NCBI GenBank assembly: GCA_049696015.1
Contig: JBAVTG010000216.1
Coordinates: 504 to 64,503, forward strand
Length of the DNA stretch: 64,000 bases
DNA from: Rhizobiaceae bacterium
GTDB taxonomy: Bacteria; Pseudomonadota; Alphaproteobacteria; Rhizobiales; Rhizobiaceae
Direction of reading: 5' to 3'
Below are positions 19,808 to 34,765 of this stretch, piece by piece (within the stretch, counting starts at the first letter, position 1; the number at the start of each line of letters is the position of its first letter). The notes under the pieces were generated by a model. The model searched no databases. It was given only the letters and a program-made list of their open reading frames with translations, and had not been told where the DNA came from. A program made the translations under genes and the position numbers.

Positions 19808-21970
19808 ATGCTGCCACGCGTCTCGCTAGCCGATCTGAGCGCCGAAGACCTGTCCGCTGAAATGGTGCGCCGGATCGAGGCGCACACTCCGGAATGGAAG
19901 AATGTGCAGCCAGGTGATCCGGGACGCACGCTGATCGATCTTTTCGCCTGGATGGGTGAAACCATCCTGTACCGTGCGAACCTGACGCCGCGCCGGATGC
20001 GGCTTGAATTCCTCAACCTTCTGAATTTGAAGCAGCGCCCGGCCGAACCCGCGCGCGGGATGCTCCAATTGCTCCCCAAAGTCCCATCCAAAGCGCGCCC
20101 AACCTTTGTGGCAAGCGGGACACGGGCCAATGGCCTGGTTCCTTTCGAAGTGCTGAGCGCTGCCACCGTGCAGCCATTTGAAGGCGCCGCTTTCATCAAA
20201 CGACGCTTGGGCGAGGCCGAACGGGCAGATCTGGCAGAAGTGCTTGCGTCGCTGACTGATGTCTATGGTGTGACTTTGGCCGAACCATACGCCACAGAAC
20301 GTCTGTTTGGGCCCGGCGATATGGCGCGGGAAAATGGCACGGATCCGCTGGCCGACAGTATTGATCAGACGCTGTGGATCGGCTTGTTTTGTGGCGATGC
20401 CAGTGCGGCAGCCCGGGCGGCGGCGATTGCGGCGCTGGACGCCCAGCCTTGCCTTTTGAACATCGGTGTGATCCCGCGTCTGAGCCTGCCCGATCTGGAA
20501 ACACCCCCGCCAGCTGGCATCGATTGGTCCATCGCAACGCGCGGGGCAGAGCCGGGAGAGGTGGCATACCTTGATCTGGCCATTGACGATGACCGCACGC
20601 GCGGGCTGACCGCTGAAGGCACGCTGCGCTTGGTGCTGCCGCGGGCCGACATGGTGTACGCCCCGCCAAACGATTTGGCTTCCGAGATTGACGCAGGGGT
20701 TGGCAACCGCCCGCCACGGCTGGATGATCCGGCTCTGGCGGCGCGCTTGATCGGCTGGCTGCGTCTCCATTCGCCTGATCCCGCAGCGCGGCTGCCGCTG
20801 TCCTGGGCGGGGATAAACTCCGTCATGGTTGATCAGCGCGAAACCCACGCGGGCATCAGCCTGGGCGTTGCCTCCGGGCAGGCCGGGCAGCGTTTTCGCC
20901 TGCCGGGGCGCGATATCGATGCGGAATCAGTTGTCCTGTCGGTCGCCGAGCCCGGCGGACAGTTCCTGCCTTGGGACGCCGTCTCCGACCTCGGCGCAGC
21001 CGGCCGCGATGACCGTGTATTCGAGTTGGAAGCGGAGGCCGGCGAAGTCATGTTTGGCGACGGCCTGACTGGCAGACTGTTGCCTGCCGGTGCGCGGGTG
21101 CGGCTGGATCGGCTGCGCGCCGGCGGCGGCGTGGCGGGAAACCTCGGGCCCGGCTCATTGACGAAAATCGAGATGCCCGGACTTCTGGCGCATCAGCCGG
21201 CGGCTTTTCATGGCGGCGTGGCAGCTGAGACGCTGGAGGCGGCGGAAAAGCGGGTGGGGGCGATGCTGAGCCACCGCAACCGTTGCATCACCGAAGACGA
21301 CTACCGTGCCATCGCCGCAGAGCTCGGCCTTGCGCGCGTCGAGGTTTTGCCAGGCTTTCGACCCTATCAACGGCGCGGCGGCAGCCCCGGCGTGGTGTCA
21401 ATCATGGTTCTGCCCGATCAGGTGCTGCGCCGTGCGCCAAATCCACGCGCAGACCGGCGCATTCTCGAACAGGTTCACGCCCATTTGGACCCGCGCCGCC
21501 CGCTTGCAACCGAGCTTTACGTGATCAGCCCGGATTATCGCGGCATTGGCCTGACCATTGGCATCACTTTGCGCGAAGGCTTTGCCCGCGAGGAGGTGGT
21601 CCGCGCTGTGAAGGAGCGGATGTTTAGTGTGCTTTGGCCGCTTGCCGGCGGTGGAATGGACAGTGCTGGCTGGACGCTTGGCGCGCAGGTTCGCAGTCTT
21701 GAGCTTCAAGTCGAGGCGGCGCGAGTGCCAGGGGTCGCAACTGTGCTCGGTGTGAACTTGTTCGCCGCCAGCAATACCGGTCTGACGCTGCTGCCGCGCC
21801 AGCCGGGCTCGATGGCGCAGAACCTGACATTGGACGAATGGCAACTGCCCGAATTGTTGGCAATTGACGTCTCAAGCGACGGCAGCATGCCTGCCACCAC
21901 ACTGTCGCTGTCGCAGTCATCGACAGGCACCGGCGCTATTGGCGTTCCCGTCGTGCCGGAGGTGTGCTGA
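19808..21970 (+). CDS. Baseplate J-like protein (gp6 / Afp11-like)
   Basis: MVRRIEAHTPEWKNVQPGDPGRTLIDLFAWMGETILYRANLTPRRMRLEFLNLL is typical of putative baseplate assembly proteins (J/gp47 family). 720 aa, at the expected position after gp25. Confidence 0.8.
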   Translation: MLPRVSLADLSAEDLSAEMVRRIEAHTPEWKNVQPGDPGRTLIDLFAWMGETILYRANLTPRRMRLEFLNLLNLKQRPAEPARGMLQLLPKVPSKARPTFVASGTRANGLVPFEVLSAATVQPFEGAAFIKRRLGEAERADLAEVLASLTDVYGVTLAEPYATERLFGPGDMARENGTDPLADSIDQTLWIGLFCGDASAAARAAAIAALDAQPCLLNIGVIPRLSLPDLETPPPAGIDWSIATRGAEPGEVAYLDLAIDDDRTRGLTAEGTLRLVLPRADMVYAPPNDLASEIDAGVGNRPPRLDDPALAARLIGWLRLHSPDPAARLPLSWAGINSVMVDQRETHAGISLGVASGQAGQRFRLPGRDIDAESVVLSVAEPGGQFLPWDAVSDLGAAGRDDRVFELEAEAGEVMFGDGLTGRLLPAGARVRLDRLRAGGGVAGNLGPGSLTKIEMPGLLAHQPAAFHGGVAAETLEAAEKRVGAMLSHRNRCITEDDYRAIAAELGLARVEVLPGFRPYQRRGGSPGVVSIMVLPDQVLRRAPNPRADRRILEQVHAHLDPRRPLATELYVISPDYRGIGLTIGITLREGFAREEVVRAVKERMFSVLWPLAGGGMDSAGWTLGAQVRSLELQVEAARVPGVATVLGVNLFAASNTGLTLLPRQPGSMAQNLTLDEWQLPELLAIDVSSDGSMPATTLSLSQSSTGTGAIGVPVVPEVC

Positions 21971-24291
21971 TGCGCGACACGAACGGCCAGATCTACTGGA
22001 ATTTCGCCACGGCCGGGGATCTTTTGCCCAAGCCCGCGCCGGGCCTTGTCTGGGATGCGCAATCCCTTGGCGTCGGTTTGCAGCCTTCCGCCTCGCCGCC
22101 GCTGGCTGCCGCATCGAAAGCTGCGGCGGAACTTGCCGCAGCAGCACCACGGATAGCGGTAGACGCTTTCGGCACTTGGGCGATTGCGGATGACGAATTG
22201 GGCGTGCGCACCGCCTTTCCAGGCGCGCCGCCGCGGTTGCTTTGGTCGCCTCCCCTTGGGTTGAGCATTGTCGATCTGGACTGGACGGCGCAGGGCCATC
22301 TGATTGTCGCCCTGCGCCATGAGGATGGCACAGGTGAGGCGCTTTGGATTGACACGCTGGGCCGGTTCGATCCGGTGCCGCTGGCAGAGCCCGGGTTTGC
22401 CCCGGACCGGATTGCAGCTTCTGCCGGGGGCGGGCCCGTCTGGCTGGTGGACCGGGCTACACAGCAGATACGGCGCATTGATGGGACACCAATCCCGGAC
22501 GTGCTGGACAGCATCGCCCGCGCGCCGGGCTTGTTCACCCCAAAGCCGGACATGGCCGATCCGGCGCGGCTGGACACGATGACGCTGGCGGGAGCGCCGG
22601 GCGATCCGATTATTGAAGCGGCGGCCGATGCCTCAGGCGCGCTGATCCTGCTTCGCCTGCCAGCGGCGGGAGAGGCTGTGCTTGAGTATTTTACTGCGGG
22701 CGGCGAACGCCACGCTGCGCGCCTGAGCGGCGTTGTCAACCCGCATGCCATGGCGGCATTCGGGCCGGGACATGTGGCTATTGCTTGCGCCGGATGGGCC
22801 GAAGCGCGGGTATTTGCCATCCCGGATCGCGATGTTCCAGTCCAGACAGCGCTCGGCGCGCGCCTGCCTTTGCGGCATTGGACCGGCGGGCGGTTCTGCG
22901 CTGGAGCCTCAGGCCGGGCGCATTATCCGGTGAGCGGACATAGCGCACCGATGCGCAGGCTTGCCGCCCTGTCCTATGCTGCATTTGCCACAAGCGGCGA
23001 AACCTTGCTTGCGCCAATCGACAGCGGTGTGGAAGGGTTTGTCTGGCATCGCCTCTATCTGGAGGCCTTCCTTCCGGCCGGAACAGCGGTGGATGTTTAT
23101 GCCGCTGCCGCAGATTCACTGGCCGAACTGCCCGGAGCAGTTGAACACCGCCACCGCTTTGGCGCGCCCGATGGCGGGCCAGGCCCTCGCGGCGCGTGGA
23201 TCGATGCGGCATCCGAACGGCCATGGGCGCGCCCTGCCGGCGATTGCCAGCGCCTTCGTGACAAGTCCGGGCTGTTCTCGGCCTTGGTCCAACGCTGCGA
23301 CAGTGCTGTCAACCGCCGTCTTTGCGGACGCTATCTGCGGCTGCGGCTGGTGTTTTCCGGCCCCGGAAGCACGGCGCCGCGTTTGCACGCCTTGCGCGTT
23401 TGGGGCCCGCGCTATTCGTGGCGCGACAGGCACCTGCCGGAGTTATATGCACAGCCCGCAGGCCCCGGCGCAGCTGGCAGCGATTTTCTGGACCGTTACC
23501 TCGCGTTGTTTGAGGGTCTGCTCACCCCGATCGAGGGCGAAATCGCCGCTGTCTGGCGGCTTGCCAACCCTGCAACCATCCCTTCAGACGGGCTCGATTG
23601 GCTCGCCAGCTGGCTTGGTCTGACCCCCGACACTGCGCTGGGCGAAGCTGCGACACGGCGTCTGATCAGCAATGCAGCGCGGCTCTCTGCGTGGCGCGGC
23701 ACATTGCGGGGCTTGACAGGCATGCTTGACATCGCCAGCGCAGGCGGCGTCGCGGCCGGGCGGATCGTGGTGATCGAACATTTCCGCATGCAGCGCACCT
23801 TTGCCACCATCCTTGGCGCCGACCTTTCGGACAGGTTTGATCCGCTGACGCGCGGGTCATCGCCCTCAGGGCAGTCGATGCTGGGACCAGGGTTTTTTCT
23901 CGGGGCAGAAGATGAAAAGCGGCTGTTCGCCTTGTTCCGCCCCGAACTTGCCGAACATCCGCTGACCAGCGCCGAAGACCGCGCCCGTGCGGCTGCACAA
24001 CTGGCCAGCATGGTGGAGGAAGCCGCGCACCGCGTTACAGTTTTGGTGCACGAGGAAACAGACGCGGAGCGCCGCGCCTTGCTGGCACGGGTGGTAACGC
24101 GTGAATGTCCGGCCCATGTGGTCGCGCGCCTTCAGGACGCGCCAGGGTCGCTGATCCTTGGCCTTTCGGCGCTTCTGGGTGTGGAAACACGGCTATCGCC
24201 CGCGCCCGAAACGGCCAGTTTCCAGCTGGACGAAACGCATCTTGGGCAGGCCCGGCTGCGCGGCACGCCCGCACTCGATAACAGGATCTAG
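21964..24291 (+). CDS. Baseplate protein, P2 gpI-like (Afp12-like)
   Basis: The internal block LDWLASWLGLTPDTALGEAATRRLISNAARLSAWRGTLRGLTGMLD is the Tail_P2_I signature. An alternative ATG at 21970 would give a TGATG junction. Confidence 0.75.
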   Translation: MLMRDTNGQIYWNFATAGDLLPKPAPGLVWDAQSLGVGLQPSASPPLAAASKAAAELAAAAPRIAVDAFGTWAIADDELGVRTAFPGAPPRLLWSPPLGLSIVDLDWTAQGHLIVALRHEDGTGEALWIDTLGRFDPVPLAEPGFAPDRIAASAGGGPVWLVDRATQQIRRIDGTPIPDVLDSIARAPGLFTPKPDMADPARLDTMTLAGAPGDPIIEAAADASGALILLRLPAAGEAVLEYFTAGGERHAARLSGVVNPHAMAAFGPGHVAIACAGWAEARVFAIPDRDVPVQTALGARLPLRHWTGGRFCAGASGRAHYPVSGHSAPMRRLAALSYAAFATSGETLLAPIDSGVEGFVWHRLYLEAFLPAGTAVDVYAAAADSLAELPGAVEHRHRFGAPDGGPGPRGAWIDAASERPWARPAGDCQRLRDKSGLFSALVQRCDSAVNRRLCGRYLRLRLVFSGPGSTAPRLHALRVWGPRYSWRDRHLPELYAQPAGPGAAGSDFLDRYLALFEGLLTPIEGEIAAVWRLANPATIPSDGLDWLASWLGLTPDTALGEAATRRLISNAARLSAWRGTLRGLTGMLDIASAGGVAAGRIVVIEHFRMQRTFATILGADLSDRFDPLTRGSSPSGQSMLGPGFFLGAEDEKRLFALFRPELAEHPLTSAEDRARAAAQLASMVEEAAHRVTVLVHEETDAERRALLARVVTRECPAHVVARLQDAPGSLILGLSALLGVETRLSPAPETASFQLDETHLGQARLRGTPALDNRI

Positions 24292-24306: not shown

Positions 24307-25194
24307 ATGGCTGGCTTTACTCCTTTTGCCGAACCAGACCCGCTGGACGAAATAGCAGGCACGGACCGCTTGCGCCCCGCAGATGGCATTTTGCTGACAG
24401 CCGACCATGTGCAGACTGAGCAGCTGTATCACCGGGGACGGCTGGCACGTCTTTTGGCCTACCTGCACGGCGCAGGCACTGTTGCAGGTCTGGATGTGCG
24501 CTACAGCGCGCCCGGCGGGACAGCGGCTGAAGTTCAGGTGACCCCAGGCCTTGCCATCGATTACCGCGGCCGCCTTGTGGAACTGACGCACCTGTCTTGC
24601 CTGAAACTGGGAGACTGGGTTGGGGCGACGGCGTCCACGCCGCAGGGGCTGGCGCGGCTGGCTGCTGGCCGGCGCGCAGCGGGCGCAGGTTTACCCGACC
24701 ATTTGGTCGTTGATCTTTTTGCCGAATTCCGCGCCTTCGCCCGCCGGCCCGAGCCCGCCTTTGCCACCGGAAATGCGGACCGCATCGATGCGATTTCACC
24801 CACGCTGGCGCAAGATTCTGTCTTTCTGAACATGGTGATCCGCGATGCGGCTTTTACTGGTTTGCCCGAAAGCATGGTCTCGCGCCTCGTCCCCGGCGCG
24901 GTGACGGCGGCAGAGGTGCAGCGGGTGAAACGTGAAAGCCTGTGGCCCGCGCTGGGGCCGCGCCCCGATCAACTGGCGCCCGACCCGACTTTGCCGCCAA
25001 CCGAACATGTCCGTGGGCATCAAGCCTTTGGCGGCGTGTTTCTGGCCCGCCTGCGTGTGCCCGTCACGGGCACCCCTCCAGGCCTGGACGACAGCATCGC
25101 GCTGACCGCGCCCGCGCTGCTGCCTGACGTTTCGGGGCGGCTTTACAGCTATTCCACGGCAGAGCTCGCGCTTTTGGCCGGGCAGAGGAGATAG
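24307..25194 (+). CDS. Unknown CIS-locus protein, paralogue 1 of 3 (shared N-terminal domain)
   Basis: GGAGGA RBS upstream. The N-terminal motif GILLTADHVQTEQLYHRGRLARLLAYLHGAGTVAGLDV...VTPGLAIDYRGRLVEL is shared with the next two genes. Confidence 0.65.
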   Translation: MAGFTPFAEPDPLDEIAGTDRLRPADGILLTADHVQTEQLYHRGRLARLLAYLHGAGTVAGLDVRYSAPGGTAAEVQVTPGLAIDYRGRLVELTHLSCLKLGDWVGATASTPQGLARLAAGRRAAGAGLPDHLVVDLFAEFRAFARRPEPAFATGNADRIDAISPTLAQDSVFLNMVIRDAAFTGLPESMVSRLVPGAVTAAEVQRVKRESLWPALGPRPDQLAPDPTLPPTEHVRGHQAFGGVFLARLRVPVTGTPPGLDDSIALTAPALLPDVSGRLYSYSTAELALLAGQRR

Positions 25195-25197
25195 ACC

Positions 25198-27324
25198 ATG
25201 GTCACCAAGGCACAGGCTTCAAGACTTGATCTGGGGCAAGGCGGGATCGACGCACCTGGTGCTGTATTCGACCAGCGCCGCACCCGAACCGCCTGGTTCG
25301 AAGGTCAGCATGTCACCGCTGACCACTTCAACCGTGACCAGAGTTATCACATCACCCGGCAAGCCGACCTTGGCCGCACCATCGGGCAGGGTGTAGTCGA
25401 AGGATTGGTGGTTTCCCTGCTGCCGGAAAGCCACAAGCTGCGCGTGGATCCCGGAATGGCACTTGCCCCAAGCGGCGAGGTGTTGGTGCTCACTGCTGCT
25501 GCCGAGATTGACCTTGCCGACGCCGGGAGCTTGCGCGGGTTTGCCGGACTTTCGGGCGATGGCGCTGTCGTGCCGCCGCCTGAAACCCGCACCGGACTGT
25601 TTATTCTGGCAGCTTCAGCCGTGGAGTACACATCCAATCCGGTCGGCAGCTATCCTGTGAGCATCAATGCCGCCCGCACGCTGGAAGACAGTGTGATCAA
25701 CGAGGCCTTGGTCTTCACTCTGACGCCGTTTCCCGTCAAGTCCACGGGAAGCGATACCGACCAATGGCGCGCGGCGGCGGCCTACCGGATATTTGTCGAG
25801 GATGCGGAGCCGGAACTGCCGCCCTCGGCTGTGCCTCTGGCAATGGTCGCGCTGATCGGGCGTCGTGTGCAATGGGTAGACGTCGCAATGGTGCGGCGTC
25901 ACTGCGCGCCGGCCGCCGGCGACATATTCGGTCTTGGCATGGTCGACCAGACCCGCCGCATCGCGCACTTTGAACAATTCGATAACCTGATCGCGGCCGA
26001 GATTGCGGCAAATCCGGCGGCTGCCGCTCCGGCGTCTGATCTGGTTCGGTCCCTGCCTCCCATGGGGCGCATGCCCGTGGGAGCCGTTGCCCTGCGCGCC
26101 GGCCCCGGCGAGCCCGAACGGCTTAGTCAGAACTGGTTTCCATCGGTAATGCCGGTTGAACTGGTCGCCCTGCCTGCCGACGAAATTGAAGCGCTCCTGC
26201 GCGAGAGCATCCACCTGCCGCCCATCGATCTTGGCGCGCCAGACAAGGTTCTGGCCAATACGCCCGTGACAGTTATCGTTCCGGTGGCGCGCGCAGATTG
26301 GGCCACAACGCCCGCCGAAGTCGCCGAGACGACATTCACCCTTGTGCCGCCGCCTGCAGTCGGGGGAACGACCACCGACCCTGCAGCGATGCTTCGGGCG
26401 TTGATGTCCGGCGAGCCCGCGCCTTCACAGGGCGAGCTGATGCTGACCGGCGCATGGCGCACGCTGCTCGGGCGGGCAAGCCACCTGTGGTATGCACGAC
26501 GGCGGCAATTCCAGCGGTCCGACATGCTCATTGCGGGGACCGAAGATGCCCTGCCAGACACTGGGCCCAGCATCCCGCCTGCACCAGCGCCACTGCCGAT
26601 AGTCAGCGACACTGCCGCCGCAGAAATGGTCGAGGAACTGGTGCCCCTGGTCAAAGCGGCTTTTGCGTCGCACGGGCTTGACGCGCAGTTCGCAAAGCAG
26701 TTGCAACTGGAAGCGCCAATGCCGCTGCGCCTGTTGCAGCGCCAGGTTCAATTTCTGGCTGAAGGCGCTCCGGCGCTGGCGCTGGCGCTCGGCATTGCCG
26801 TGGTGGATCGGGGCGAAAAACCCGAAGATATGCTGAAAACCCATGTTGCCGACACGGCAGCCGTCTATGCGCGGGCCGAACCGGTGCTGATCGGGCAGGG
26901 GCTCGGTCTGGTTGTGCCTTTTGCGCCGGACACCAACCCTGAACCCGCAATGAAACTGATTTCCGTGACAATTGGCTTCGACCCGCGCCAGTTGGACGGC
27001 TTGGTCAGGCAGCTGTCCAGCCTGACCATCCACCCCGAAGGCATTGAAAAGGCCGACAATCTGGCGCGCGCGCTGGAGACTGCGCTTGAACTGGCCGTCC
27101 CCGTTGGTTTTGCCTTGGCCAACCCGCTCGGGCCAGATGTTCTCAAACAGCGCCTGCGGCTGGCCGCGACGGGTGCCTTGCCTGCAGTGGCAGCCGGTCT
27201 AAGCCGGGTAAAACCTGAAAACCGGCCAAAGCTGTTGGCAATGCTGCGCAACGCCGTCGAGACCGCGCCTGACGATGCAGCCCTGACCAAAGCGCTTCTC
27301 ACCGCAGTTCGGAGGATCAACTGA
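25198..27324 (+). CDS. Unknown CIS-locus protein, paralogue 2 of 3
   Basis: AGGAGA RBS upstream. GQHVTADHFNRDQSYHITRQADLGRTIGQGVVEGLVV...VDPGMALAPSGEVLVL. There is further collinear similarity to the 1309-aa protein (VPLAMVALIGRRVQW vs VAVAMLGIGAGERILW; LPPMGRMP vs LPPAGILP). Confidence 0.65.
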   Translation: MVTKAQASRLDLGQGGIDAPGAVFDQRRTRTAWFEGQHVTADHFNRDQSYHITRQADLGRTIGQGVVEGLVVSLLPESHKLRVDPGMALAPSGEVLVLTAAAEIDLADAGSLRGFAGLSGDGAVVPPPETRTGLFILAASAVEYTSNPVGSYPVSINAARTLEDSVINEALVFTLTPFPVKSTGSDTDQWRAAAAYRIFVEDAEPELPPSAVPLAMVALIGRRVQWVDVAMVRRHCAPAAGDIFGLGMVDQTRRIAHFEQFDNLIAAEIAANPAAAAPASDLVRSLPPMGRMPVGAVALRAGPGEPERLSQNWFPSVMPVELVALPADEIEALLRESIHLPPIDLGAPDKVLANTPVTVIVPVARADWATTPAEVAETTFTLVPPPAVGGTTTDPAAMLRALMSGEPAPSQGELMLTGAWRTLLGRASHLWYARRRQFQRSDMLIAGTEDALPDTGPSIPPAPAPLPIVSDTAAAEMVEELVPLVKAAFASHGLDAQFAKQLQLEAPMPLRLLQRQVQFLAEGAPALALALGIAVVDRGEKPEDMLKTHVADTAAVYARAEPVLIGQGLGLVVPFAPDTNPEPAMKLISVTIGFDPRQLDGLVRQLSSLTIHPEGIEKADNLARALETALELAVPVGFALANPLGPDVLKQRLRLAATGALPAVAAGLSRVKPENRPKLLAMLRNAVETAPDDAALTKALLTAVRRIN

Positions 27325-30300
27325 TGGCCGCTCAAATACTTCAGGGATTTGCGCCACGCACGGCAGCCATCGGCATTGCACCGCCGGTAGCGCGCCATGT
27401 CCCCCCCGAAGCCGGATTGCAGCGGCTTCGCTTCCACCGGGGCCGGCATCTGACTGCCGCTGCTTTGCAGTTGGAGGCAGATAACCATGAGGCGCGTTTT
27501 GGCTTGACTTGCCGGGCGTTAAACGACGGGGTTGTTGGCGGTTTTGCCGTTTCGCTGTTCGACCAGACAGCCGCACCCGGGCAGTTTCGGCTTGAGCCAG
27601 GTTTTGCCATTGCGCCATCCGGCCAGGATCTGGTCATTGACCGGCCCGCGCGGTTCGCCTTGTCCACATTGCCGCGGACAAGCGCGACGGGAGATGCGGT
27701 GCCTGCAACCACGACAGGCGTCGGCTTGCTGGTGCTGACCCCGGTCAGCGCAACCGAGACGCGCTTTGCGTCCACCTTCGACCGCGAAGCCGCCTTTCGG
27801 CGCGATCAGCAGCTTGATCCGTCGGCAGCGCCCTATCAGGACCCGCGCAGCGTCGATGGCGTGATGCTTTCGCTTGTGATGTTGGAGCCGCTGGCGGCTC
27901 AGGCAACCGCACCTGGCGGGATGCTGCGGGCGGCGTATCTTTTGGCCGAGGCCGAAGCCGTCGGCGCAGCCCTTGCCAGCCACGCGCGCGAAGGTGTGGC
28001 CGTTGCGATGCTGGGAATTGGCGCTGGCGAGCGCATACTGTGGATCAGCAGATATGCAGCCGCTCGGCGCGGCGGGGGCGCGCCACAGCCATTTACCAGA
28101 GCTTTCGCGGGCACAGGGTCGCTGCCGCCCCGGCTTGCCCAGGCGCAAGTCGACACACTTTTGGAACGCTTGCGCCAATTGCGCGGACCCGGCGCTTTGC
28201 CCGGCTCGCTTGATCCGGCCGAACTGCGGCACCTGCCGCCCGCCGGCATTCTTCCCGCTCCAGGCGGCGTAATCCCTTCGCTTTTCCCGCAAAGATGGGA
28301 ACAGTCCGTCACTCCAATTCCGCTGCGCCAGCTTGACGCTGTGTTTGAGGATGCTGCAGCGATGGAGCCCTTTGATCTCACTCAGCCAAATGACATCCTG
28401 CGCTGGTATGTGCCGGTCCCGGACGAATTGTTTGAAGCCGATCTTTTGCGAACACCACAGGTCTCAGAACTATTTGACGACGCAGTTGCCACGCTTGGCA
28501 GCCGTGTCGCCAAGGCCCATGGCGCGCGCAATGCCTTGCGCGCGGGTGGCGCTGCCGTGGAAGGGGCATTGGATACACGAACCATCCCGCCTGCCCCGGT
28601 CATCCCGGATCCGGAAGCTGTACCGGGCGAGCCGGCTGAGCAAAGCTCTGTCCCCACGCCCGATGTTGCGCCTGAAATCACTGCCTTGCGCGCGGCATGG
28701 TTTGCCAGCCTTGATACTGCCCTGCTCACGGCCGATCAGATGCATATGGCCAATCCAGCGAGCCCCGAGCAGGCAGGCAAACCCAAAGGCATCGTCCCGT
28801 TTCTGGCCAGCATGGTTGCCGGTATCAACGCCGCCGATGACCTGGTTGATATGGGATTTACCCGCGTTCAAACCGAGATCTACCGATTGCGCCAGATGGC
28901 GCTGGACAGCGAGGCTGCAACCAAGCTTGTGACTTTCCCGGTACTTGCAGGCATCGCCAAGGGATCCAATGCACTTGCCACATCCAAAGGCCTTTCAGAC
29001 CGGTTCCGCGCCGTCAAAGACGCTCCGGCGCAGCCCATCGTGCAGACGGTCGCACCAGCAATTCAGACATCTGCCGCAGTGGAAAACAACAATTTGATCA
29101 GGCGCAGCAGCCAGATCATGCAAGGCGTTTCAGCCATCGGCAGAGGCGCTGTCAAAAAGACGGACTTCAGCATGCAGGTTGGCAAAGCTGGCGCATCCGG
29201 CGTTGCCTTGGCAAGCGCACTGGGCATTGAGGTGGCGCCAAAAGACAGTTTTACCAATATCTTCAACGCATCGCGTGCTGTGGCCGTTGATGAAATCAGC
29301 CTGAGCAGCGTTGCCGACAAACGGGCCGGCATCTTGCTGGCAGACGCGATACCTGGCGATTATCAAGACTTGCGTACGCTCACCATTGCAAACCGCCTTG
29401 AAAACCCTGCGGCAATGACGGCGCGGGCAGCGGCGCTGCGGGTCAAGGCTGATGCGCTGGGCGCTTCGGCGCTGTTGGGCGTCAACTTGACCGGGGTGCG
29501 TGCGCCGCTGGTGGCCCTGGATGCCGACAACGCTCTGCTTTCGGGCAGTGCGCTGGACACTTTTCTGAATGAGATGCTGGGCCAAAATCAAACCGGCATA
29601 GTCAAGGAGGCTGCCGCCGCCTTGAAAAGAGCAGCTGTCCAGCTGCAGGGACCCGAGCCGGTATTCCACGTCCGCTTTTCCGGTCTTTCGGCCCCCCAAC
29701 GCGCAGATGCGGCCGTGCGCGCCTTCCTCGTGCGCATGCGCGCGGCACCCTCGCCGGTGGCAGCCAAAGAGCTGCCCGATCTTGTGCTCGCCCGCACATT
29801 CGACCCCGATCCCACGTCTGCCACGGACGAGGCGGCCTATTTGTCATCCGCAGTTGCGATACTGGAAAGTGTTGTGTCGCTCTATCGTGCCCTTGAAGGC
29901 CGCGTGCTTGCCTTGCGCAATGTGCAGCGCATCACGGACGAGGCGATGGCGAAGGTCGAAGCGCTGGTAACCCGCTGGCGCGAAGCGCTTGATAGCGCAA
30001 ACCGGGATCTGGCCGAAGCGCGCCATGATCTTTTGGCGGCAACGGCGCTTCTGGCCGAAGAGACGCAGCGCATCGCCGCGCTCGATGCACATCGCAAGGC
30101 GGTCGTTGCCAAACATGTCAATGCTGTGGTGTTCACCAGGGTTCGTCACCTGCGCCCTCACGGAGCAGGCGCTACATCGGGGCGGTTGTTGGCCGGCGTC
30201 TACGCCGATGCGACGCCCGCAGCCTTGGCACGGCCGGCCAAATTGCCCGACGTTCTCAATCGGATGATGGATGTGCTGGGCAACGTGCCGATCGGCTGGT

Positions 30301-31253
30301 TTGCGGCCCGCGACCGGTTGATGAAAGGCTATTCCGCACCCAAACAGCTCGACGCGGCTTTTCATTGGGCCGCTAACCGGTCTGTGGTCCGTCTGAGCGC
30401 GATGGAAAGCCTTGGCATAGGACGGACATTGACTGCCTCCGCCCCGGATATCGCACCTGCACGTCCCGGCAAACGAGGGCGGGCGGGCGTCGTTGCAGGT
30501 CAAATTGCCCAGCATTACGACGGCATATCACGCCAGTTGCTGCAGGCGCGGGGCAAGCTTGATCTCGGATTGATCGACCGTCAGGGATGGGTAGAAAAAC
30601 GCGCCCGTGCCGAAGTGGAGCTATCGCTCAACGATCTGATCGAAGGTGGCCGTGACAGTGTCGGAGCCCGCGACGCCCTGGCGGAAATCGATGGAATCGA
30701 ACGGGTCGTGTCAGCGCTTTCCCAAGCGATGCGCCGGGCGCCGGCGGAAGTGCGATTGCTGTGGGCAGACAGGCTTTCCGCATTTGACGGCGATCCGAAG
30801 CTGGGAGCTGTGGAGGCTCTGCCGGGCTTTTTCGGGATGGAGGCAAGTCTGCGGGCCGAGATCGGCTCGCTGCATGGCTGGCTCTTCCGGCGGATGACTC
30901 CCGGGCTGAAAGAGGGCGAAGCCTTGATGTCAGATTTCGTGCAGGTGACGGCCTTGCTCGCCGCCAATGCCGATGCTGATGCTGTCGTGACGGCGCGCCT
31001 TGCCAGCGCGGTGCAGGTGGCCGCTGGCGAGACTGTTGACATTGCACTCGACCGGGGCAGCCCGACGATCGGAACACCGGTGTGGTTTACGCTTGCAACC
31101 GGCATACAGGTGGCAGGGAAGGTGCGCGATGTCATCCAGAACCGCGCGCGCGTCGAGATTGCCGCAGGCACTGCCGGGCTGATGACGCTCGATCTTACAA
31201 CGCGCGTGTTTGTGGATGCCCGCCGCGCGAGCCCGCACGGCTATGTCCGTTGA
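27324..31253 (+). CDS. Unknown 1309-aa CIS-locus protein, paralogue 3 of 3 (long Ala-rich, probably helical C-terminal extension)
   Basis: TGATG junction with the upstream gene. N-terminal motif GRHLTAAALQLEADNHEARFGLTCRALNDGVVGGFAV...LEPGFAIAPSGQDLVI. The rest matches nothing I recognise. Confidence 0.65.
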   Translation: MAAQILQGFAPRTAAIGIAPPVARHVPPEAGLQRLRFHRGRHLTAAALQLEADNHEARFGLTCRALNDGVVGGFAVSLFDQTAAPGQFRLEPGFAIAPSGQDLVIDRPARFALSTLPRTSATGDAVPATTTGVGLLVLTPVSATETRFASTFDREAAFRRDQQLDPSAAPYQDPRSVDGVMLSLVMLEPLAAQATAPGGMLRAAYLLAEAEAVGAALASHAREGVAVAMLGIGAGERILWISRYAAARRGGGAPQPFTRAFAGTGSLPPRLAQAQVDTLLERLRQLRGPGALPGSLDPAELRHLPPAGILPAPGGVIPSLFPQRWEQSVTPIPLRQLDAVFEDAAAMEPFDLTQPNDILRWYVPVPDELFEADLLRTPQVSELFDDAVATLGSRVAKAHGARNALRAGGAAVEGALDTRTIPPAPVIPDPEAVPGEPAEQSSVPTPDVAPEITALRAAWFASLDTALLTADQMHMANPASPEQAGKPKGIVPFLASMVAGINAADDLVDMGFTRVQTEIYRLRQMALDSEAATKLVTFPVLAGIAKGSNALATSKGLSDRFRAVKDAPAQPIVQTVAPAIQTSAAVENNNLIRRSSQIMQGVSAIGRGAVKKTDFSMQVGKAGASGVALASALGIEVAPKDSFTNIFNASRAVAVDEISLSSVADKRAGILLADAIPGDYQDLRTLTIANRLENPAAMTARAAALRVKADALGASALLGVNLTGVRAPLVALDADNALLSGSALDTFLNEMLGQNQTGIVKEAAAALKRAAVQLQGPEPVFHVRFSGLSAPQRADAAVRAFLVRMRAAPSPVAAKELPDLVLARTFDPDPTSATDEAAYLSSAVAILESVVSLYRALEGRVLALRNVQRITDEAMAKVEALVTRWREALDSANRDLAEARHDLLAATALLAEETQRIAALDAHRKAVVAKHVNAVVFTRVRHLRPHGAGATSGRLLAGVYADATPAALARPAKLPDVLNRMMDVLGNVPIGWFAARDRLMKGYSAPKQLDAAFHWAANRSVVRLSAMESLGIGRTLTASAPDIAPARPGKRGRAGVVAGQIAQHYDGISRQLLQARGKLDLGLIDRQGWVEKRARAEVELSLNDLIEGGRDSVGARDALAEIDGIERVVSALSQAMRRAPAEVRLLWADRLSAFDGDPKLGAVEALPGFFGMEASLRAEIGSLHGWLFRRMTPGLKEGEALMSDFVQVTALLAANADADAVVTARLASAVQVAAGETVDIALDRGSPTIGTPVWFTLATGIQVAGKVRDVIQNRARVEIAAGTAGLMTLDLTTRVFVDARRASPHGYVR

Positions 31254-32931
31254 GGGCGTCACTTTGCGCCGGCTGGCGCTGACAGCAACGGATCGCGGCC
31301 ATGTCCGCCGCGTGTTGCCGGAGCTTGAAGATGCCATGCGCACAGCCAGTCTGCCAGGCGCGGGGCGCAGTGAAGTCGTGCTCGTTCGACGGCTGGATCT
31401 GGGACGGATCGCGCCCGGAACTTCGCGGCAGGCGCTGGCAGTGCGGATCGAAGCGCTGATGGCGGGTTTGTCGCCGGTTGTCGCTACCGATAGTCTGCGC
31501 ACCGGTGTTAGGGGCGCGCAAGGCAACGCACTGCGCTGGCCCGATCATGTGACATTGCTCGCTGACGTGGCTGTGTGTCTGGTCGGTAAGCCCGGCGGAC
31601 TGATTTCCGGCTGGTGGGTGGATGTGGCTTTGAAAGTGCCTGCGGGCAGCGCAACCCTCCAGGCTTTTGGAAAAGCAGTCCAGGCGATGCTGGACAACGC
31701 GCCGGTTGCATCGCGGCCGGAAATTCTGGGCGCTTTGGCTGCACGTTGTATAGCACTGGGCGCGATTCAGGCGCTTTTCCCGCTGGCCACCTTGATAGTG
31801 GCGCTTGCCGCAGACGTGCTGAGCGCGGGCGCCGGTTTCAAGGGTGCAGTCCTATTCAAGGATGAAGGCGTCAGCAGCGCCCGCATTGCCACATTGATGC
31901 AAAAAAGCGCGCCGGACCTGACCAGCGCATTGGCACAGGCATCCGTGATCGCCGCGCCGTTGGCAGTGCTGATCCTAGCACACCGGCATGGCCGCACCGG
32001 ACTTGTCAGGCGCTTGCTGCAGGCCGGGTCTACTCCAGAGGTCAGCGCTTTGGCAAATGCTGACGCGCATGCAAAGGCCAATGAACCGAGCAGCGGTATT
32101 GCCGGAAAGAGGGCCCGTGCCGAGGCCAGGCATGGCGGATTGTTGCCCCGGCAAGGCAATGCAGCGCCGCTTACGCCGGTCAGGCGAGCCCGCTCCCTTG
32201 GTTTGCCAGGAGCAGCCGCATGTGGAGCTGAAACCAGGGTAAGCGATCCGGTTTCGATTATGGCAAAGGCGCGATCTGACGTGCCCACATGGGGCGGCGG
32301 TTTTCCAATCCTCGTGAACTTGCTTCGCCTGACCGGTATCAACGCCATGGAAATGCAGCTGGATCATCCCCTTTGTCTGCCCTTAGCGCGCACACTGCTG
32401 TCACGCCTGATGCCCGATGATCCGCTGCTCGCCGCACTTCCCGAAGCAGCGCCGCCGCTGTCCTTACCACTTGTCCCTGCCTTGCCCGAGCCCATGTTGC
32501 TGGCGCTTGCGCGAGGCGTTGCGGCAATTCCCGGCCATCCAGGGCGCCGCGCGCTCATGCTGCGGCAGGGATGTGTGATCGGAATTCTGGACGGGGCAGG
32601 GCTAAAGCGGATCCGCGCTTTGGAGGACAGGCCGGTTCTGCGGCGAATGCCGCCGTTGAAAGGCCCGCTGGAGCCGGCGCTCCTGGCCGGTCTTCAATTG
32701 GGGCTTTCACGCCTGTTGCTGCGACACTGCGGCCGCAGCCTGCGCGCCACACTGCGCCGCCCGGGCTGGTTGGCAGCAAGTCCCACCCATATCGACATAA
32801 CGCTCGATCTGGCAGATGTGCGGATCGCAGAACGCCGGGCTGGCCTGGATCTGTCGCCCGGTTGGGTGGCGTGGGCGGCACGGGTGATCCTCCTGCACTT
32901 CGAGCCAATGGAGGGTCGCCATGCCTCGTGA
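31243..32931 (+). CDS. Hypothetical CIS-locus protein preceding the ATPase
   Basis: The ORF overlaps both neighbours by 11 nt (ATG at 31243 chosen; track start 31210). No motif recognised. Confidence 0.55.
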   Translation: MSVEGVTLRRLALTATDRGHVRRVLPELEDAMRTASLPGAGRSEVVLVRRLDLGRIAPGTSRQALAVRIEALMAGLSPVVATDSLRTGVRGAQGNALRWPDHVTLLADVAVCLVGKPGGLISGWWVDVALKVPAGSATLQAFGKAVQAMLDNAPVASRPEILGALAARCIALGAIQALFPLATLIVALAADVLSAGAGFKGAVLFKDEGVSSARIATLMQKSAPDLTSALAQASVIAAPLAVLILAHRHGRTGLVRRLLQAGSTPEVSALANADAHAKANEPSSGIAGKRARAEARHGGLLPRQGNAAPLTPVRRARSLGLPGAAACGAETRVSDPVSIMAKARSDVPTWGGGFPILVNLLRLTGINAMEMQLDHPLCLPLARTLLSRLMPDDPLLAALPEAAPPLSLPLVPALPEPMLLALARGVAAIPGHPGRRALMLRQGCVIGILDGAGLKRIRALEDRPVLRRMPPLKGPLEPALLAGLQLGLSRLLLRHCGRSLRATLRRPGWLAASPTHIDITLDLADVRIAERRAGLDLSPGWVAWAARVILLHFEPMEGRHAS

Positions 32932-34765
32932 CGGACCTGACCCGCACGACACCGGCCTTGATGCGATACTGGGGCTGGCGCTTGATGGCCTGGCGGGCGT
33001 CGCTGCCGTCGGGCCAGCAATGCTGGAGACCGCTCTTGCCAACCCGTCGCCGGCCGAGATGCGCCTTGTCGGACCCGGCCATGCGCTGGGACTTTCCGCT
33101 GGCGAACTCTTTTGCCTGTGGCTGCTTTTCCGGGTTGAAGCCGATGCCGATCTGGCGCGCAGGATCGGAGGCATGCAAGAGGGCGAAGCAAGACACCGGC
33201 CATCGCCGGCACTCATGGCGAGCTTGCTGGTTGCGCTGGGGGCAGGTGAAACCAACCTTCTCAACGGACCGCTTTTCCGGCTGCCGCTGGCGCGCCTTCT
33301 GCCCGGGCCAGCGCCGATGGTTCTCACGGCAGCAGCGCTGACGGACCCGATGCTTTCGGCGCTTGGTCTGCCAGGCGCGCCGCCGCTGACTGCAGTTCCT
33401 TTCTGCGCCGATGTTCCCGATGGCTGGCGGGTTTGCGCAGCACAGATTGCCGACGGTCTGGTTGCCGCCGCCCGTCCGGCGCGTAAACTGGCGCTGGTGC
33501 TGCGCGGCGGCCTGCCTGCCGATCAGCGGTTGTTCGCATCTGCAATTGCGCAGGCGCTCGCCCGCCCCTTGATCGCGCTCGAACCGGATGCCGCGCGCGC
33601 CGGACTTGGCGCCGCCTTGCGGTTTACGGGCGCCGTGCCCTTTGAAGCGCCAAAACCTGCACCCGGCACGCGTGCCGGGTTGCTGCCGCTTGATCATTGC
33701 GGCGATCTGCGGCTTGTGGCGTTGGGAGCGGACGGAGGGGTTGAGGCTGCGGGCTGGGACTGCGCCGATATCCCCGTGCCTGCCTTGAGCGCGGCAGATC
33801 GCGGCGGCCTCTGGCCGGGAGCCGCAGACTTGCCGATTGACGGTCTTGGCCCGGCGCGCTTGCGCGCGGTGGCGGCAAGGATGGCGCTGACAGAACCGGG
33901 CATAAAGGAAAGTGCGGCATTCCGGGCGGCAGCCGGCGCCGAGGCACGCGCCGACATCGAGCCTCATGGACAGCTGGTATCGGACGAGGTTGATGATGAA
34001 GGCCTTGTTGCGCCGCCGGAACTTGCAGGCGACCTCGCGCTTTTGGCCGCGCGCTGCCGCCAGCGGCGTTTGCCGCGCGCGCCCCTTGGTCCGGCCTTTG
34101 CCGCCAGATCGGCTGAAACCGGGGTGCGGGCATTGCTCTCCGGGCCGTCTGGCGCGGGCAAAACTCTGGCGTGCGCTTGGCTGGCCACTCGTCTTGGAAT
34201 GCCGTTGTTTCGGGTGGACCTGTCATCGGTGGTGTCCAAATACATTGGCGAAACCGAGGAAAACCTTGCCCGCATTCTCGACCGGGCCGAAGCGGCAGAC
34301 GTCATCCTGCTCTTCGACGAAGCTGACAGCCTGTTTGGCGCACGAACCGAGGTGAAGGACAGTTCGGACCGCTTTGCCAACAACCAGACCAACTATCTGC
34401 TGACACGCATCGAAAACTATGGCGGGATAGTGTTGATGACGGCGAACGGGCGGAGCCGGATTGATCCGGCCTTTGCCCGGCGCATCGAACAAATCATAGA
34501 CGTGCCAGTGCCCGACGCCGCAACCCGCCGCTTGATCTGGCGCGCGCACCTGGGCGGACATCATTGCCTGAGCGGCGCGGACTTGTCCCGGCTTGCGAGC
34601 AGCGCCGACATTGCCGGTGGGCACATCCGCGCCATAGTTCAGACAGCGGCAGTCATTTCAGCCGAGGCGGGCACACCCATTTCTTATGCAGACCTGCGCC
34701 GTGCACTCATTCTCGAGTATCGCAAAATCGGGCGTACGCCGCCCAGCCAACTGGTGTCGCCATGA
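32921..34765 (+). CDS. AAA+ ATPase (Afp15/Pvc15-like) with long N-terminal extension
   Basis: Walker A LLSGPSGAGKTLAC, Walker B VILLFDEADSLF, VSKYIGETEENLARILDRA and IDPAFARRIEQIIDVPVPD form a classic CDC48-type AAA module in the C-terminal roughly 230 aa. The roughly 380 aa preceding it are unassigned. Confidence 0.85.
   Translation: MPRDGPDPHDTGLDAILGLALDGLAGVAAVGPAMLETALANPSPAEMRLVGPGHALGLSAGELFCLWLLFRVEADADLARRIGGMQEGEARHRPSPALMASLLVALGAGETNLLNGPLFRLPLARLLPGPAPMVLTAAALTDPMLSALGLPGAPPLTAVPFCADVPDGWRVCAAQIADGLVAAARPARKLALVLRGGLPADQRLFASAIAQALARPLIALEPDAARAGLGAALRFTGAVPFEAPKPAPGTRAGLLPLDHCGDLRLVALGADGGVEAAGWDCADIPVPALSAADRGGLWPGAADLPIDGLGPARLRAVAARMALTEPGIKESAAFRAAAGAEARADIEPHGQLVSDEVDDEGLVAPPELAGDLALLAARCRQRRLPRAPLGPAFAARSAETGVRALLSGPSGAGKTLACAWLATRLGMPLFRVDLSSVVSKYIGETEENLARILDRAEAADVILLFDEADSLFGARTEVKDSSDRFANNQTNYLLTRIENYGGIVLMTANGRSRIDPAFARRIEQIIDVPVPDAATRRLIWRAHLGGHHCLSGADLSRLASSADIAGGHIRAIVQTAAVISAEAGTPISYADLRRALILEYRKIGRTPPSQLVSP

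What the first reader, a model, noticed from the sequence alone, without database searches (positions are those of the whole stretch)
24307..31253. Three consecutive paralogues (295, 708 and 1309 aa) sharing an N-terminal domain, occupying the tail-fibre / tape-measure position
The three genes after the gpI-like baseplate gene begin with the same module. Protein 1 has GILLTADHVQTEQLYHRGRLARLLAYLHGAGTVAGLDV...VTPGLAIDYRGRLVEL. Protein 2 has GQHVTADHFNRDQSYHITRQADLGRTIGQGVVEGLVV...VDPGMALAPSGEVLVL. Protein 3 has GRHLTAAALQLEADNHEARFGLTCRALNDGVVGGFAV...LEPGFAIAPSGQDLVI. Proteins 2 and 3 stay collinear for several hundred residues more (VPLAMVALIGRRVQW vs VAVAMLGIGAGERILW; LPPMGRMP vs LPPAGILP; PPIDL vs EPFDL). 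Protein 3 then adds about 800 Ala/Leu/Arg-rich residues. A shared attachment domain with divergent distal parts is what one expects of baseplate-periphery or fibre-like proteins. However, none looks like a known fibre, and I see no obvious tape-measure protein elsewhere, so one of them may have that role.
Basis: seen in the sequence. Interest (0 to 1): 0.6.

Follow-up and report, generated by a model that had tools for sequence, protein, structure and literature searches.

The report
Three TssK-like baseplate proteins in tandem
The three neighbouring genes encode related proteins that most likely bolt onto the outer rim of a phage-tail-like injection machine through a shared N-terminal "shoulder" domain; this kind of multi-fibre arrangement was catalogued in 2026, and none of the three looks like a tape measure.

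Summary
The ORFs at 24307-25194 (295 aa), 25198-27324 (708 aa) and 27324-31253 (1309 aa) are translationally coupled. They share a significant N-terminal module of about 80 aa. The 708-aa and 1309-aa proteins are homologous over about 350 residues (hhalign E 2e-29).

The module matches the N-terminus of the solved crown protein Cis19 of the Anabaena tCIS (PDB 7b5h, E 2.6e-6). It also matches, weakly, the AlgoCIS tail fibre Alg19 (9wt0). AlphaFold models of the 295- and 708-aa proteins hit Cis19, T6SS TssK and phage baseplate or fibre proteins.

The three are therefore TssK-like "shoulder" proteins. They probably form trimers that dock on the Tail_P2_I/TssG-like wedge protein Cis12 encoded just upstream.

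The order Cis12, short, medium, long, unknown, AAA ATPase recurs in at least 70 of 80 related loci from eight phyla. The distal parts are conserved rather than shuffled, and they carry no known binding domain.

The tape-measure idea is not supported. A 2026 catalogue of eCIS fibres already describes TssK-like eBAP3 anchors and multi-fibre loci, so this is a new member of a known kind. Two things are open: whether the proteins form homo- or heterotrimers, and what the conserved distal domains bind.

The parts
21964..24291 (+). Cis12 wedge protein (gpI / Tail_P2_I, TssG-like). It is the probable docking partner of the three paralogues.
   Evidence: Pfam Tail_P2_I E 5.5e-8. NCBIfam CIS12_fam partial match E 4e-37 and TIGR02242. 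The C-terminal residues ..ALDNRI are conserved among 67 orthologues.
24307..25194 (+). P1, 295 aa: a shoulder-only TssK-like protein, the most Cis13-like of the three. It is conserved over its full length.
   Evidence: AF2 pLDDT 88, pTM 0.86. Foldseek hits 7b5h Cis19 (E 6e-3), TssK 5y0e (E 0.019) and the phi812 baseplate. NCBIfam CIS13_fam matches the N-terminal 66 aa only, E 1.7e-14, 54 bits against a cutoff of 370. Found in 80 of 80 related loci with median identity 36%.
24361..24606 (+). Shared N-terminal module in P1 (aa 19-100)
   Evidence: hmmsearch domain 19-99, E 2.5e-30; alignment A6.
25198..27324 (+). P2, 708 aa. It has a TssK-like shoulder and neck plus an alpha/beta middle region (aa 1-435), a flexible linker (438-463), and an all-helical C-terminal domain (465-708).
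   Evidence: AF2 pLDDT 82.7. Foldseek PDB top hits are 7b5h chains AA/AB/AC = All3314/Cis19 (E 6e-4, prob 1.0), then phi812, TssK and IglD. The viral library returns phage tail fibres and RBPs.
25273..25509 (+). Shared N-terminal module in P2 (aa 26-104)
   Evidence: hmmsearch domain 26-103, E 2e-28; alignment A6.
26590..27321 (+). P2 C-terminal helical domain (aa 465-708). It evolves fast but is homologous across loci.
   Evidence: pLDDT >90, helical. The window copy has no BLAST hit in any of the 80 loci. jackhmmer nevertheless links it to the main cluster of P2 C-termini.
27324..31253 (+). P3, 1309 aa: the long TssK-like paralogue
   Evidence: ORF. Homologues of 1220-1772 aa occur in 74 of 80 loci. 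No Pfam, NCBIfam or PDB sequence match beyond the N-terminal module.
27399..28439 (+). P3 region homologous to P2 (aa 26-372), which includes the shared N-terminal module (27417-27656)
   Evidence: hhalign A3 vs A4, prob 99.8, E 2.3e-29.
28524..28823 (+). P3 Pro-rich variable linker (aa 401-500) and main site of length variation
   Evidence: Low conservation. Mean inserts of 38-88 aa occur after residues 450-464. No BLAST hits in any of the 80 loci.
28824..29003 (+). P3 conserved block (aa 501-560)
   Evidence: Mean column conservation 0.62. Found in 69 of 80 loci with median identity 47%.
29874..31250 (+). P3 conserved C-terminal domain (aa 851-1309). It begins with a coiled-coil-like stretch at aa 860-944 (29901-30155).
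   Evidence: Found in 70 of 80 loci. Conservation profile, heptad screen, alignment A7. No PDB or NCBIfam relative.
31243..32931 (+). Conserved unknown gene at the Afp14 position. It always follows P3 and precedes the AAA ATPase.
   Evidence: Found in 58 of 80 loci. Only the ends (aa ~25-90 and ~480-570) are conserved. No family match.

Best explanation
The three genes encode three paralogous TssK-like baseplate-peripheral proteins of a lineage-II CIS that has a Tail_P2_I adaptor and no PAAR.

Each protein begins with the central helix and first beta-strands of the 'shoulder' fold. That fold is found in T6SS TssK, in lactococcal phage receptor-binding proteins, in the Anabaena tCIS crown protein Cis19, and in the AlgoCIS tail fibre Alg19. 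In the solved systems the fold trimerises, and the trimer is gripped by a loop or the C-terminus of the gp7/TssG-like wedge protein.

By analogy (inferred), P1, P2 and P3 each form a trimer that docks on Cis12, and possibly on Cis11, at each of the six wedges. This would give a three-layer periphery:
- P1 is a shoulder-only plug or adaptor.
- P2 is a shoulder plus a helical distal domain.
- P3 is a long arm: shoulder, flexible Pro-rich linker, a short coiled coil, and a conserved terminal domain.

Shown here: the homology among the three proteins, their homology and fold match to Cis19/TssK, the gene order, and the conservation across loci.

Inferred: trimerisation, the docking site, and the copy number per particle.
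For: The pairwise and profile similarities among the three proteins are significant.

The N-module profile A6 hits All3314 (Cis19, 18 chains in 7b5h) at residues 19-84 with E 2.6e-6. It hits 9wt0 (Alg19) at residues 20-83 with E 0.069 (weaker hits).

Confident AF2 models of P1 and P2 give Cis19, TssK, IglD and phi812 baseplate proteins as top Foldseek hits. The viral library gives phage tail fibres and RBPs.

The upstream gene carries Tail_P2_I. Published work supports the docking mode:
- The Alg19 shoulder is held by the Alg12 C-terminal loop (PMC13314943).
- Cis13 and Cis19 are trimers on the tCIS baseplate (PMC8894136).
- eBAP3 fibres are TssK-like, sit behind Tail_P2_I genes, and up to four may attach per adaptor. 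Of catalogued loci, 23% are multi-fibre (PMC12923769).

The gene order Cis12-P1-P2-P3-unknown-AAA is found in 70 of 80 related loci from 8 phyla. Four more loci have an extra P2 or P3 copy, and the rest are at contig ends.

Other CIS clades carry 2-5 tandem N-module paralogues behind Cis12.

The genes are translationally coupled.
Against: None of the three reaches any curated family threshold. Pfam TssK (T6SS_VasE) and DUF6519 are not hit, and CIS13_fam scores 27-54 bits against a cutoff of 370.

Foldseek E-values are modest (6e-4 to 2e-2). TM-scores are low because only ~180-230 residues align.

Oligomeric state and docking site were not computed or observed. No internal repeat or set of three docking loops was detectable in Cis12.

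The distal domains have no recognisable function, and P3 could not be folded.
Confidence: 0.75

Rival explanations
1. The three paralogues form one 1:1:1 heterotrimer per wedge. Their three related N-modules would build a pseudo-threefold shoulder around a single Cis12 peptide, instead of three separate homotrimers.
For: There are exactly three N-module genes, in a fixed order and translationally coupled, in at least 70 of 80 loci of this clade. The part shared by all three is the central helix and first strands, which lie on the trimer axis in Cis19 and Alg19. Cis12 shows only one obviously conserved terminal peptide and no triplicated loop. The Cis19 trimer is already only pseudo-C3 (PMC8894136).
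Against: All solved relatives (TssK, Cis13, Cis19, Alg19, phage RBPs) are homotrimers. P1 shares only ~90 residues with the other two, whereas P2 and P3 share ~350. Some loci have 1-2-2-3 or 1-2-3-3, and other clades have 2, 4 or 5 paralogues. Published multimer models favour several fibres per Tail_P2_I adaptor (PMC12923769).
Confidence: 0.12
2. The 1309-aa protein (or the 708-aa one) is the tape measure that sets tube length.
For: No recognisable Afp14/Pvc14 homologue is present in the operon. P3 is long and Ala/Leu/Arg-rich. Its length varies from 1220 to 1772 aa between loci.
Against: Its first ~375 residues are homologous to the TssK-like region of P2, a globular external baseplate fold too large for a tube lumen. 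Pro is 6.3% and Gly 7.7%, scattered throughout. In my own crude heptad screen only one ~85-aa Pro/Gly-free heptad stretch stands out. Length variation sits in a Pro-rich linker and one variable block, flanked by conserved globular-looking blocks. Lineage II systems usually lack Afp14 homologues (PMC6899500). Another conserved gene holds the Afp14 position.
Confidence: 0.03
3. They are classical target-recognition tail fibres. The distal domains of P2 and P3 would bind receptors on prey or host cells, and three fibres would give polyvalent targeting.
For: Alg19 mediates cell binding (PMC13314943). The eCIS fibre catalogue interprets multi-fibre loci as polyvalent targeting (PMC12923769). The P2 C-terminal domain is the fastest-evolving part.
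Against: The distal domains are homologous across eight phyla and very different habitats rather than swapped. None of 43 P2 and P3 orthologues carries a lectin, Ig, PKD or other Pfam binding domain. P1 has no distal domain at all.
Confidence: 0.3

Closest known systems
Cis19 (All3314), crown protein of the Anabaena sp. PCC 7120 thylakoid-anchored CIS (PDB 7b5h; PMC8894136)
   Same: The N-terminal ~70 residues match the shared module (E 2.6e-6). It is the best Foldseek hit for both models. It is long (1476 aa), trimeric, sits at the baseplate periphery, and has flexible fibre-like distal parts.
   Different: No similarity is detectable beyond the shoulder and neck. The tCIS has one Cis13 with a transmembrane helix plus one Cis19. 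Here there are three paralogues, none with a TM helix, and the gene order differs.
eBAP3-type eCIS tail fibres with a Tail_P2_I adaptor (Nat Commun 2026, PMC12923769)
   Same: A shoulder-like, TssK-like N-terminal anchor. The genes lie directly downstream of a Tail_P2_I gene. Multi-fibre loci are enriched in Pseudomonadota and Myxococcota. Desulfacinum and Pseudorhodoferax genomes listed there with two adjacent eBAP3 genes are probably, though not verifiably, the strains that carry this trio here.
   Different: The catalogue stresses rapidly evolving, shuffled receptor-binding domains. This trio is a fixed set with conserved distal domains that have no Pfam hit. The catalogue lists only two genes for those loci, and I could not test its eBAP3 HMM directly.
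TssK of the type VI secretion system (PDB 5y0e, 5m30, 5mwn, 6n38, 6giy)
   Same: The shoulder and neck fold. Several trimers attach per wedge through loops of the gp7-like TssG. The distal head binds a conserved partner, the membrane complex, rather than a prey receptor.
   Different: There is no sequence-level membership, since Pfam T6SS_VasE is not hit. Here there are three different paralogues instead of two copies of one protein. The system has Cis11, Cis16 and an eCIS-type operon rather than a T6SS.
Alg19 tail fibre of AlgoCIS (PDB 9wt0; PMC8894135, PMC13314943)
   Same: The N-terminal module motif (E 0.069 over residues 20-83). It is a homotrimer whose shoulder is held by the C-terminal loop of the gp7-like Alg12. 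It stabilises the pre-firing baseplate.
   Different: Alg19 carries Ig/PKD-rich distal chains and is the only fibre. AlgoCIS belongs to subtype Ib.
Afp13/Pvc13 fibres and the Afp14/Pvc14 tape measure of lineage I eCIS
   Same: The operon position after Afp12 and before the Afp15 ATPase.
   Different: There is no adenovirus-like shaft and no eBAP1 helical anchor. There is no similarity to Afp14, and the architecture is incompatible with a lumenal ruler.

Membership tests
TssK / phage-RBP shoulder fold superfamily | N-terminal shoulder (beta-sandwich around a central helix) followed by a helical neck | tested here: met
   Foldseek on the AF2 models of P1 and P2 gives Cis19, TssK (5y0e, 6n38, 5mwn, 6giy, 5m30), IglD, the phi812 baseplate, and phage tail fibres and RBPs, with prob 0.9-1.0 over 180-240 columns. 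P3 is covered only by its homology to P2.
TssK family (Pfam PF05936 T6SS_VasE) | Sequence match above the Pfam gathering score | tested here: not met
   No Pfam family matched at E<=1 for any of the three proteins, nor for 43 orthologues at E<=1e-3.
TssK / Cis19 / Alg19-type baseplate proteins | Homotrimer docked on a loop or terminus of the gp7/TssG-like wedge protein | not testable with these tools
   No multimer prediction was available. This rests only on analogy (PMC13314943, PMC8894136) and on adjacency to the Tail_P2_I gene.
NCBIfam NF053767 CIS13_fam (equivalog) | Full-length match of at least 370 bits | tested here: not met
   Scores are 53.9, 28.0 and 26.6 bits, covering only profile positions ~4-86 of 392.
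Cis19 / eBAP4 crown proteins | N-terminal ~200 aa of the tCIS crown protein | tested here: inconclusive
   The first ~70 aa match significantly (E 2.6e-6) and the fold matches over ~220 columns. The whole-family profile of P3 does not hit All3314, and the locus has a Tail_P2_I adaptor, which the catalogue associates with eBAP3/5 rather than eBAP4.
Cis19 / eBAP4 crown proteins | Bulky shaft followed by Ig/PKD/lectin chains | tested here: not met
   No Ig, PKD, VWA or lectin Pfam domain is present in P2, P3 or 43 orthologues.
eBAP3 eCIS fibres (PMC12923769) | Shoulder-like N-terminal anchor of ~200 aa, with the gene immediately downstream of a Tail_P2_I gene in an eCIS locus | tested here: met
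   Fold. Tail_P2_I in the upstream gene. eCIS core genes are present: Pvc16_N, sheath, gp19 tube, CIS_tube, GPD, gpV, gp25 and Baseplate_J.
eBAP3 eCIS fibres (PMC12923769) | Match to the authors' eBAP3 HMM | not testable with these tools
   The HMM is not held. The only evidence is indirect: genomes carrying this trio are listed with adjacent eBAP3 genes.
Tape measure protein (Afp14 / Pvc14 / gp29 type) | Extended, largely helical chain without large globular domains, able to lie in the tube lumen | tested here: not met
   P2 and P3 start with a ~375-435-aa alpha/beta TssK-like region. P3 has only one ~85-aa Pro/Gly-free heptad stretch in my own crude heptad screen.
Tape measure protein (Afp14 / Pvc14 / gp29 type) | Sequence similarity to known tape measures | tested here: not met
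   No Pfam, NCBIfam, PHROG or PDB match.
Tape measure protein (Afp14 / Pvc14 / gp29 type) | Protein length proportional to tail length | not testable with these tools
   No particle lengths are known for any carrier of this clade.

The most novel reading that the evidence does not exclude
The trio may not be a set of prey-recognition fibres at all. It may be a fixed, three-tier TssK-like periphery whose conserved distal domains bind a conserved component of the producer cell or of the machine itself. Candidates are the conserved membrane-hairpin protein next to the spike, the unknown protein at the Afp14 position, and the AAA ATPase. Under this reading the whole widespread clade works as a cell-anchored, T6SS-like or tCIS-like system rather than as a released eCIS. 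A still more unusual variant is that the three paralogues assemble into one 1:1:1 pseudo-threefold heterotrimer, which has not been described for any TssK or RBP-shoulder protein I am aware of.
Probability: 0.2. Interest if true: 0.6.

Novelty: new member of a known kind. Interest (0 to 1): 0.33.

Why it matters
It assigns a fold and a probable place in the machine to three 'hypothetical proteins'. These proteins recur, in the same order, in a CIS clade found in at least 229 species of eight phyla. The N-module marks about 12,000 protein clusters in public data.

The analysis also removes a false lead, the tape-measure reading. It points to a different gene at the Afp14 position.

It raises one concrete question for CIS biology. 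A widespread clade keeps three TssK-like paralogues with conserved, domain-less distal parts, whereas most described eCIS fibres have shuffled receptor-binding tips. The reason is not known.

If the distal domains bind producer-cell components, this clade would be another case of an anchored CIS. If they bind targets, P2 and P3 are the parts to exchange when retargeting such particles in laboratory chassis.

Tried and rejected
- Pfam, PHROGs and NCBIfam scans of the three proteins gave nothing above threshold. Single-sequence PDB searches gave only noise.
- The search for related loci with the broad P2 alignment A1 failed because it had no conserved 7-10-column stretch. The P1 alignment A2 worked.
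- I first read the absence of BLAST hits for the P2 C-terminal domain as a swapped hypervariable tip. All-against-all clustering and jackhmmer showed it is a diverged but homologous domain, so I withdrew that reading.
- I looked for three repeated docking loops in Cis12 by hhalign self-comparison with alternative alignments. Nothing was significant; the best off-diagonal E-value was 0.047 at prob 1%.
- Profile searches of the P3 C-terminal domain against the PDB and NCBIfam gave only coiled-coil noise.
- Pfam on 9 and then 43 orthologues gave no domain.
- There are no transmembrane helices in any of the three proteins. A tCIS-Cis13-type membrane anchor is therefore rejected for these proteins.
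- P3 could not be folded.
- The heptad screen is my own crude script, not a calibrated coiled-coil predictor.
Full report
**Observation.** The window carries a complete phage-tail-like contractile injection system (CIS) operon on the + strand.
- Cis16 cap (Pvc16_N, 8172-8798).
- Two sheath genes, two gp19-type tube genes and a CIS_tube protein.
- GPD and gpV spike parts, then a 517-aa unknown.
- gp25, then Baseplate_J (Cis11, 19808-21970).
- A Tail_P2_I protein (Cis12, 21964-24291).
- The three ORFs of the finding.
- An unknown gene, an AAA ATPase (32921-34765) and another unknown.
- A 2842-aa protein and a PoNi immunity gene.

No PAAR gene was seen among the main ORFs. A divergent Afp12/13 region without PAAR is what Chen et al. 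describe for lineage II subtype IIb (PMC6899500).

The three ORFs are exactly as reported: 24307-25194 (P1, 295 aa), 25198-27324 (P2, 708 aa) and 27324-31253 (P3, 1309 aa). They have Shine-Dalgarno sequences and 3-nt-gap or overlapping junctions, which indicates translational coupling.

**Is the similarity real?** Yes.
- BLASTP gives P1-P2 E 8e-6, P2-P3 E 9e-10 plus a second collinear segment at 2e-4, and P1-P3 E 0.005.
- With family profiles built from database homologues, P2 and P3 align over about 350 residues (P2 22-370, P3 26-372; hhalign prob 99.8, E 2.3e-29).
- P1 shares only the first ~90 residues with P2 (E 2e-11) and with P3 (E 2e-5).
- A profile built from the three window copies alone recognises 247 of the 249 collected family members.

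**What the module is.**
- None of the proteins matches Pfam or PHROGs. All three match the first ~80 positions of NCBIfam CIS13_fam, far below its cutoff.
- A profile of the module alone (alignment A6, 45 sequences from the window and 14 related loci) hits residues 19-84 of All3314 in PDB 7b5h with E 2.6e-6. It hits residues 20-83 of the 'PKD domain-containing protein' in 9wt0 with E 0.069.
- All3314 is Cis19, the trimeric 'crown' protein of the Anabaena thylakoid-anchored CIS (PMC8894136).
- 9wt0 belongs to the AlgoCIS firing study. Its chain is therefore the tail fibre Alg19. The Alg19 homotrimer has a TssK-like and phage-RBP-like shoulder held by the C-terminal loop of the gp7-like Alg12 (PMC13314943).
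- AlphaFold2 models are confident: P2 has pLDDT 82.7, and P1 has pLDDT 88 and pTM 0.86.
- Foldseek against the PDB returns, for P2, the three Cis19 chains first (E 6e-4, prob 1.0). A phi812 baseplate protein, TssK from several T6SS structures and IglD follow.
- For P1 the same set appears, with Cis19 at 6e-3 and TssK at 0.019.
- Against predicted viral structures, P2 finds phage tail fibres and receptor-binding proteins.
- The three proteins are thus TssK-like shoulder proteins of three sizes. P1 is essentially shoulder and neck only.
- P2 adds an alpha/beta middle region, a flexible linker and a helical C-terminal domain.
- P3 adds a Pro-rich linker, a conserved 60-aa block, a variable block, and a conserved ~450-aa C-terminal domain. 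That domain starts with the only clear coiled-coil-like stretch, aa 860-944, as judged by my own crude heptad screen.
- None has a transmembrane helix.

**Context in other genomes.**
- The P1 profile finds 229 loci in one-genome-per-species GTDB contigs. The 80 best come from Pseudomonadota, Myxococcota, Desulfobacterota, Chloroflexota, Acidobacteriota, Nitrospirota, Cyanobacteriota and Gemmatimonadota.
- I scanned all ORFs of these loci with the module HMM and with family HMMs. Seventy loci have exactly P1-P2-P3 in that order directly after Cis12. Three have P1-P2-P2-P3 and one has P1-P2-P3-P3. The remaining six stop at contig ends or are fragmentary.
- The trio is followed by the same unknown gene and the AAA ATPase, and preceded by the membrane-hairpin gene, gp25, Cis11 and Cis12. 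Median lengths are 302, 644 and 1405 aa.
- In more distant CIS loci of the same phylum, two to five tandem genes with the module follow Cis12.
- The module profile finds 12,033 cluster representatives among 1.84 billion proteins. The module is nearly always at the N-terminus, and in the top hits the lengths cluster near 290, 650 and 1250-1900 aa.

**Evolutionary behaviour.**
- Relative to the window proteins, P1 (median 36% identity), P2 1-435 (35-40%) and the P3 blocks (28-47%) are about as conserved as Cis12 (35%) and Cis11 (43%).
- The P2 C-terminal domain gives no BLAST hit from the window copy. However, 61 of 85 such tails form one BLAST cluster, and jackhmmer links the window copy to them. 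The domain is therefore diverged, not exchanged.
- None of 43 P2 and P3 orthologues has any Pfam domain. The P3 C-terminal profile finds nothing in the PDB or NCBIfam.
- This differs from the shuffled lectin/Ig/PKD tips reported for most eCIS fibres (PMC12923769).

**How it most likely works.**
- In T6SS, TssG loops hold two TssK trimers per wedge. In AlgoCIS, the Alg12 C-terminus holds the Alg19 trimer. In tCIS, Cis13 and Cis19 trimers decorate each wedge.
- The 2026 fibre catalogue reports that Tail_P2_I proteins resemble TssG, that eBAP3 fibres resemble TssK, that up to four fibres may attach per adaptor, and that 23% of loci are multi-fibre.
- I infer that P1, P2 and P3 each trimerise through the shared module and dock on Cis12 (and perhaps Cis11) of every wedge, forming the outer baseplate.
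- The conserved C-terminal peptide of Cis12 (..ALDNRI) is a candidate docking element. I found no triplicated loop.
- Whether the proteins form three homotrimers or one heterotrimer could not be tested. Homotrimers are favoured by precedent, by the unequal extent of homology, and by loci with 2, 4 or 5 paralogues.

**Tape measure.**
- The reading is not supported. P3 begins with a large TssK-like domain and has Pro and Gly scattered throughout. It varies in length mainly in a Pro-rich linker and ends in a conserved domain.
- Afp14 homologues are generally missing in lineage II.
- The gene at the Afp14 position (31243-32931) has conserved ends and a variable middle. It would be a better, though untested, candidate.

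**Novelty.**
- TssK-like N-terminal anchors, Tail_P2_I adaptors and multi-fibre loci are published (PMC12923769).
- That paper's tables list adjacent eBAP3 genes in Desulfacinum and Pseudorhodoferax genomes. These are probably the strains in which I find the trio, but I cannot verify this.
- This is therefore a new member of a known kind.
- What appears undescribed is that one clade keeps a fixed short-medium-long trio with conserved, domain-less distal parts across eight phyla.

Noticed in passing
window 31243-32931 (+): An unknown 562-aa gene sits at the Afp14 (tape-measure) position, between P3 and the AAA ATPase. Only its ends (aa ~25-90 and ~480-570 of the 573-aa ORF) are conserved, and the middle is variable. 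It is present in 58 of 80 related loci. It is a candidate ruler or assembly factor.
   Followed up: partly
window 14668-15897 (+): A CIS_tube (Cis7-like) protein whose C-terminal ~230 residues are Gly/Ala/Ser-rich and of low complexity, where a LysM-type domain would be expected. A thread fused to the tube initiator could also bear on length control.
   Followed up: no
window 25198-27324, AF2 model of P2: A small subdomain of the P2 model matches the ClpS adaptor fold (Foldseek prob ~0.9, 75-80 columns, TM to target 0.5-0.6). The residues involved were not mapped, and the significance is unknown.
   Followed up: no
window 24130-24291 (C-terminus of Cis12): The last residues of Cis12 (..PALDNRI) are strongly conserved among 67 orthologues. 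This may be a docking peptide for a shoulder trimer, like the C-terminal loop of Alg12.
   Followed up: partly
L029 and L030 (Aliikangiella maris scaffolds 4 and 3): Two copies of the whole Cis12-P1-P2-P3-unknown-AAA region lie on two scaffolds of one genome. Their ORF coordinates and scores are identical.
   Followed up: no
L073, L080, L091 (Sorangium, Polyangium); L088 (Myxococcus dinghuensis): Myxobacterial loci carry an extra P2 paralogue (P1-P2-P2-P3) or an extra P3 paralogue (P1-P2-P3-P3). This shows that the trio can expand by duplication.
   Followed up: partly
G183:C15, G368:C14, G188:C3, G044:C1 (loci L018-L025): More distant CIS clades of the same phylum have 3-5 tandem genes with the same N-module. 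In G183 two of them lie upstream of the short Tail_P2_I gene and three lie downstream.
   Followed up: partly
P0175 (Aliikangiella maris P1 orthologue): UniRef names this P1 orthologue 'Viral coat protein P2 N-terminal domain-containing protein'. This is an automatic structural-superfamily label that independently points to a phage receptor-binding-protein-like fold.
   Followed up: no
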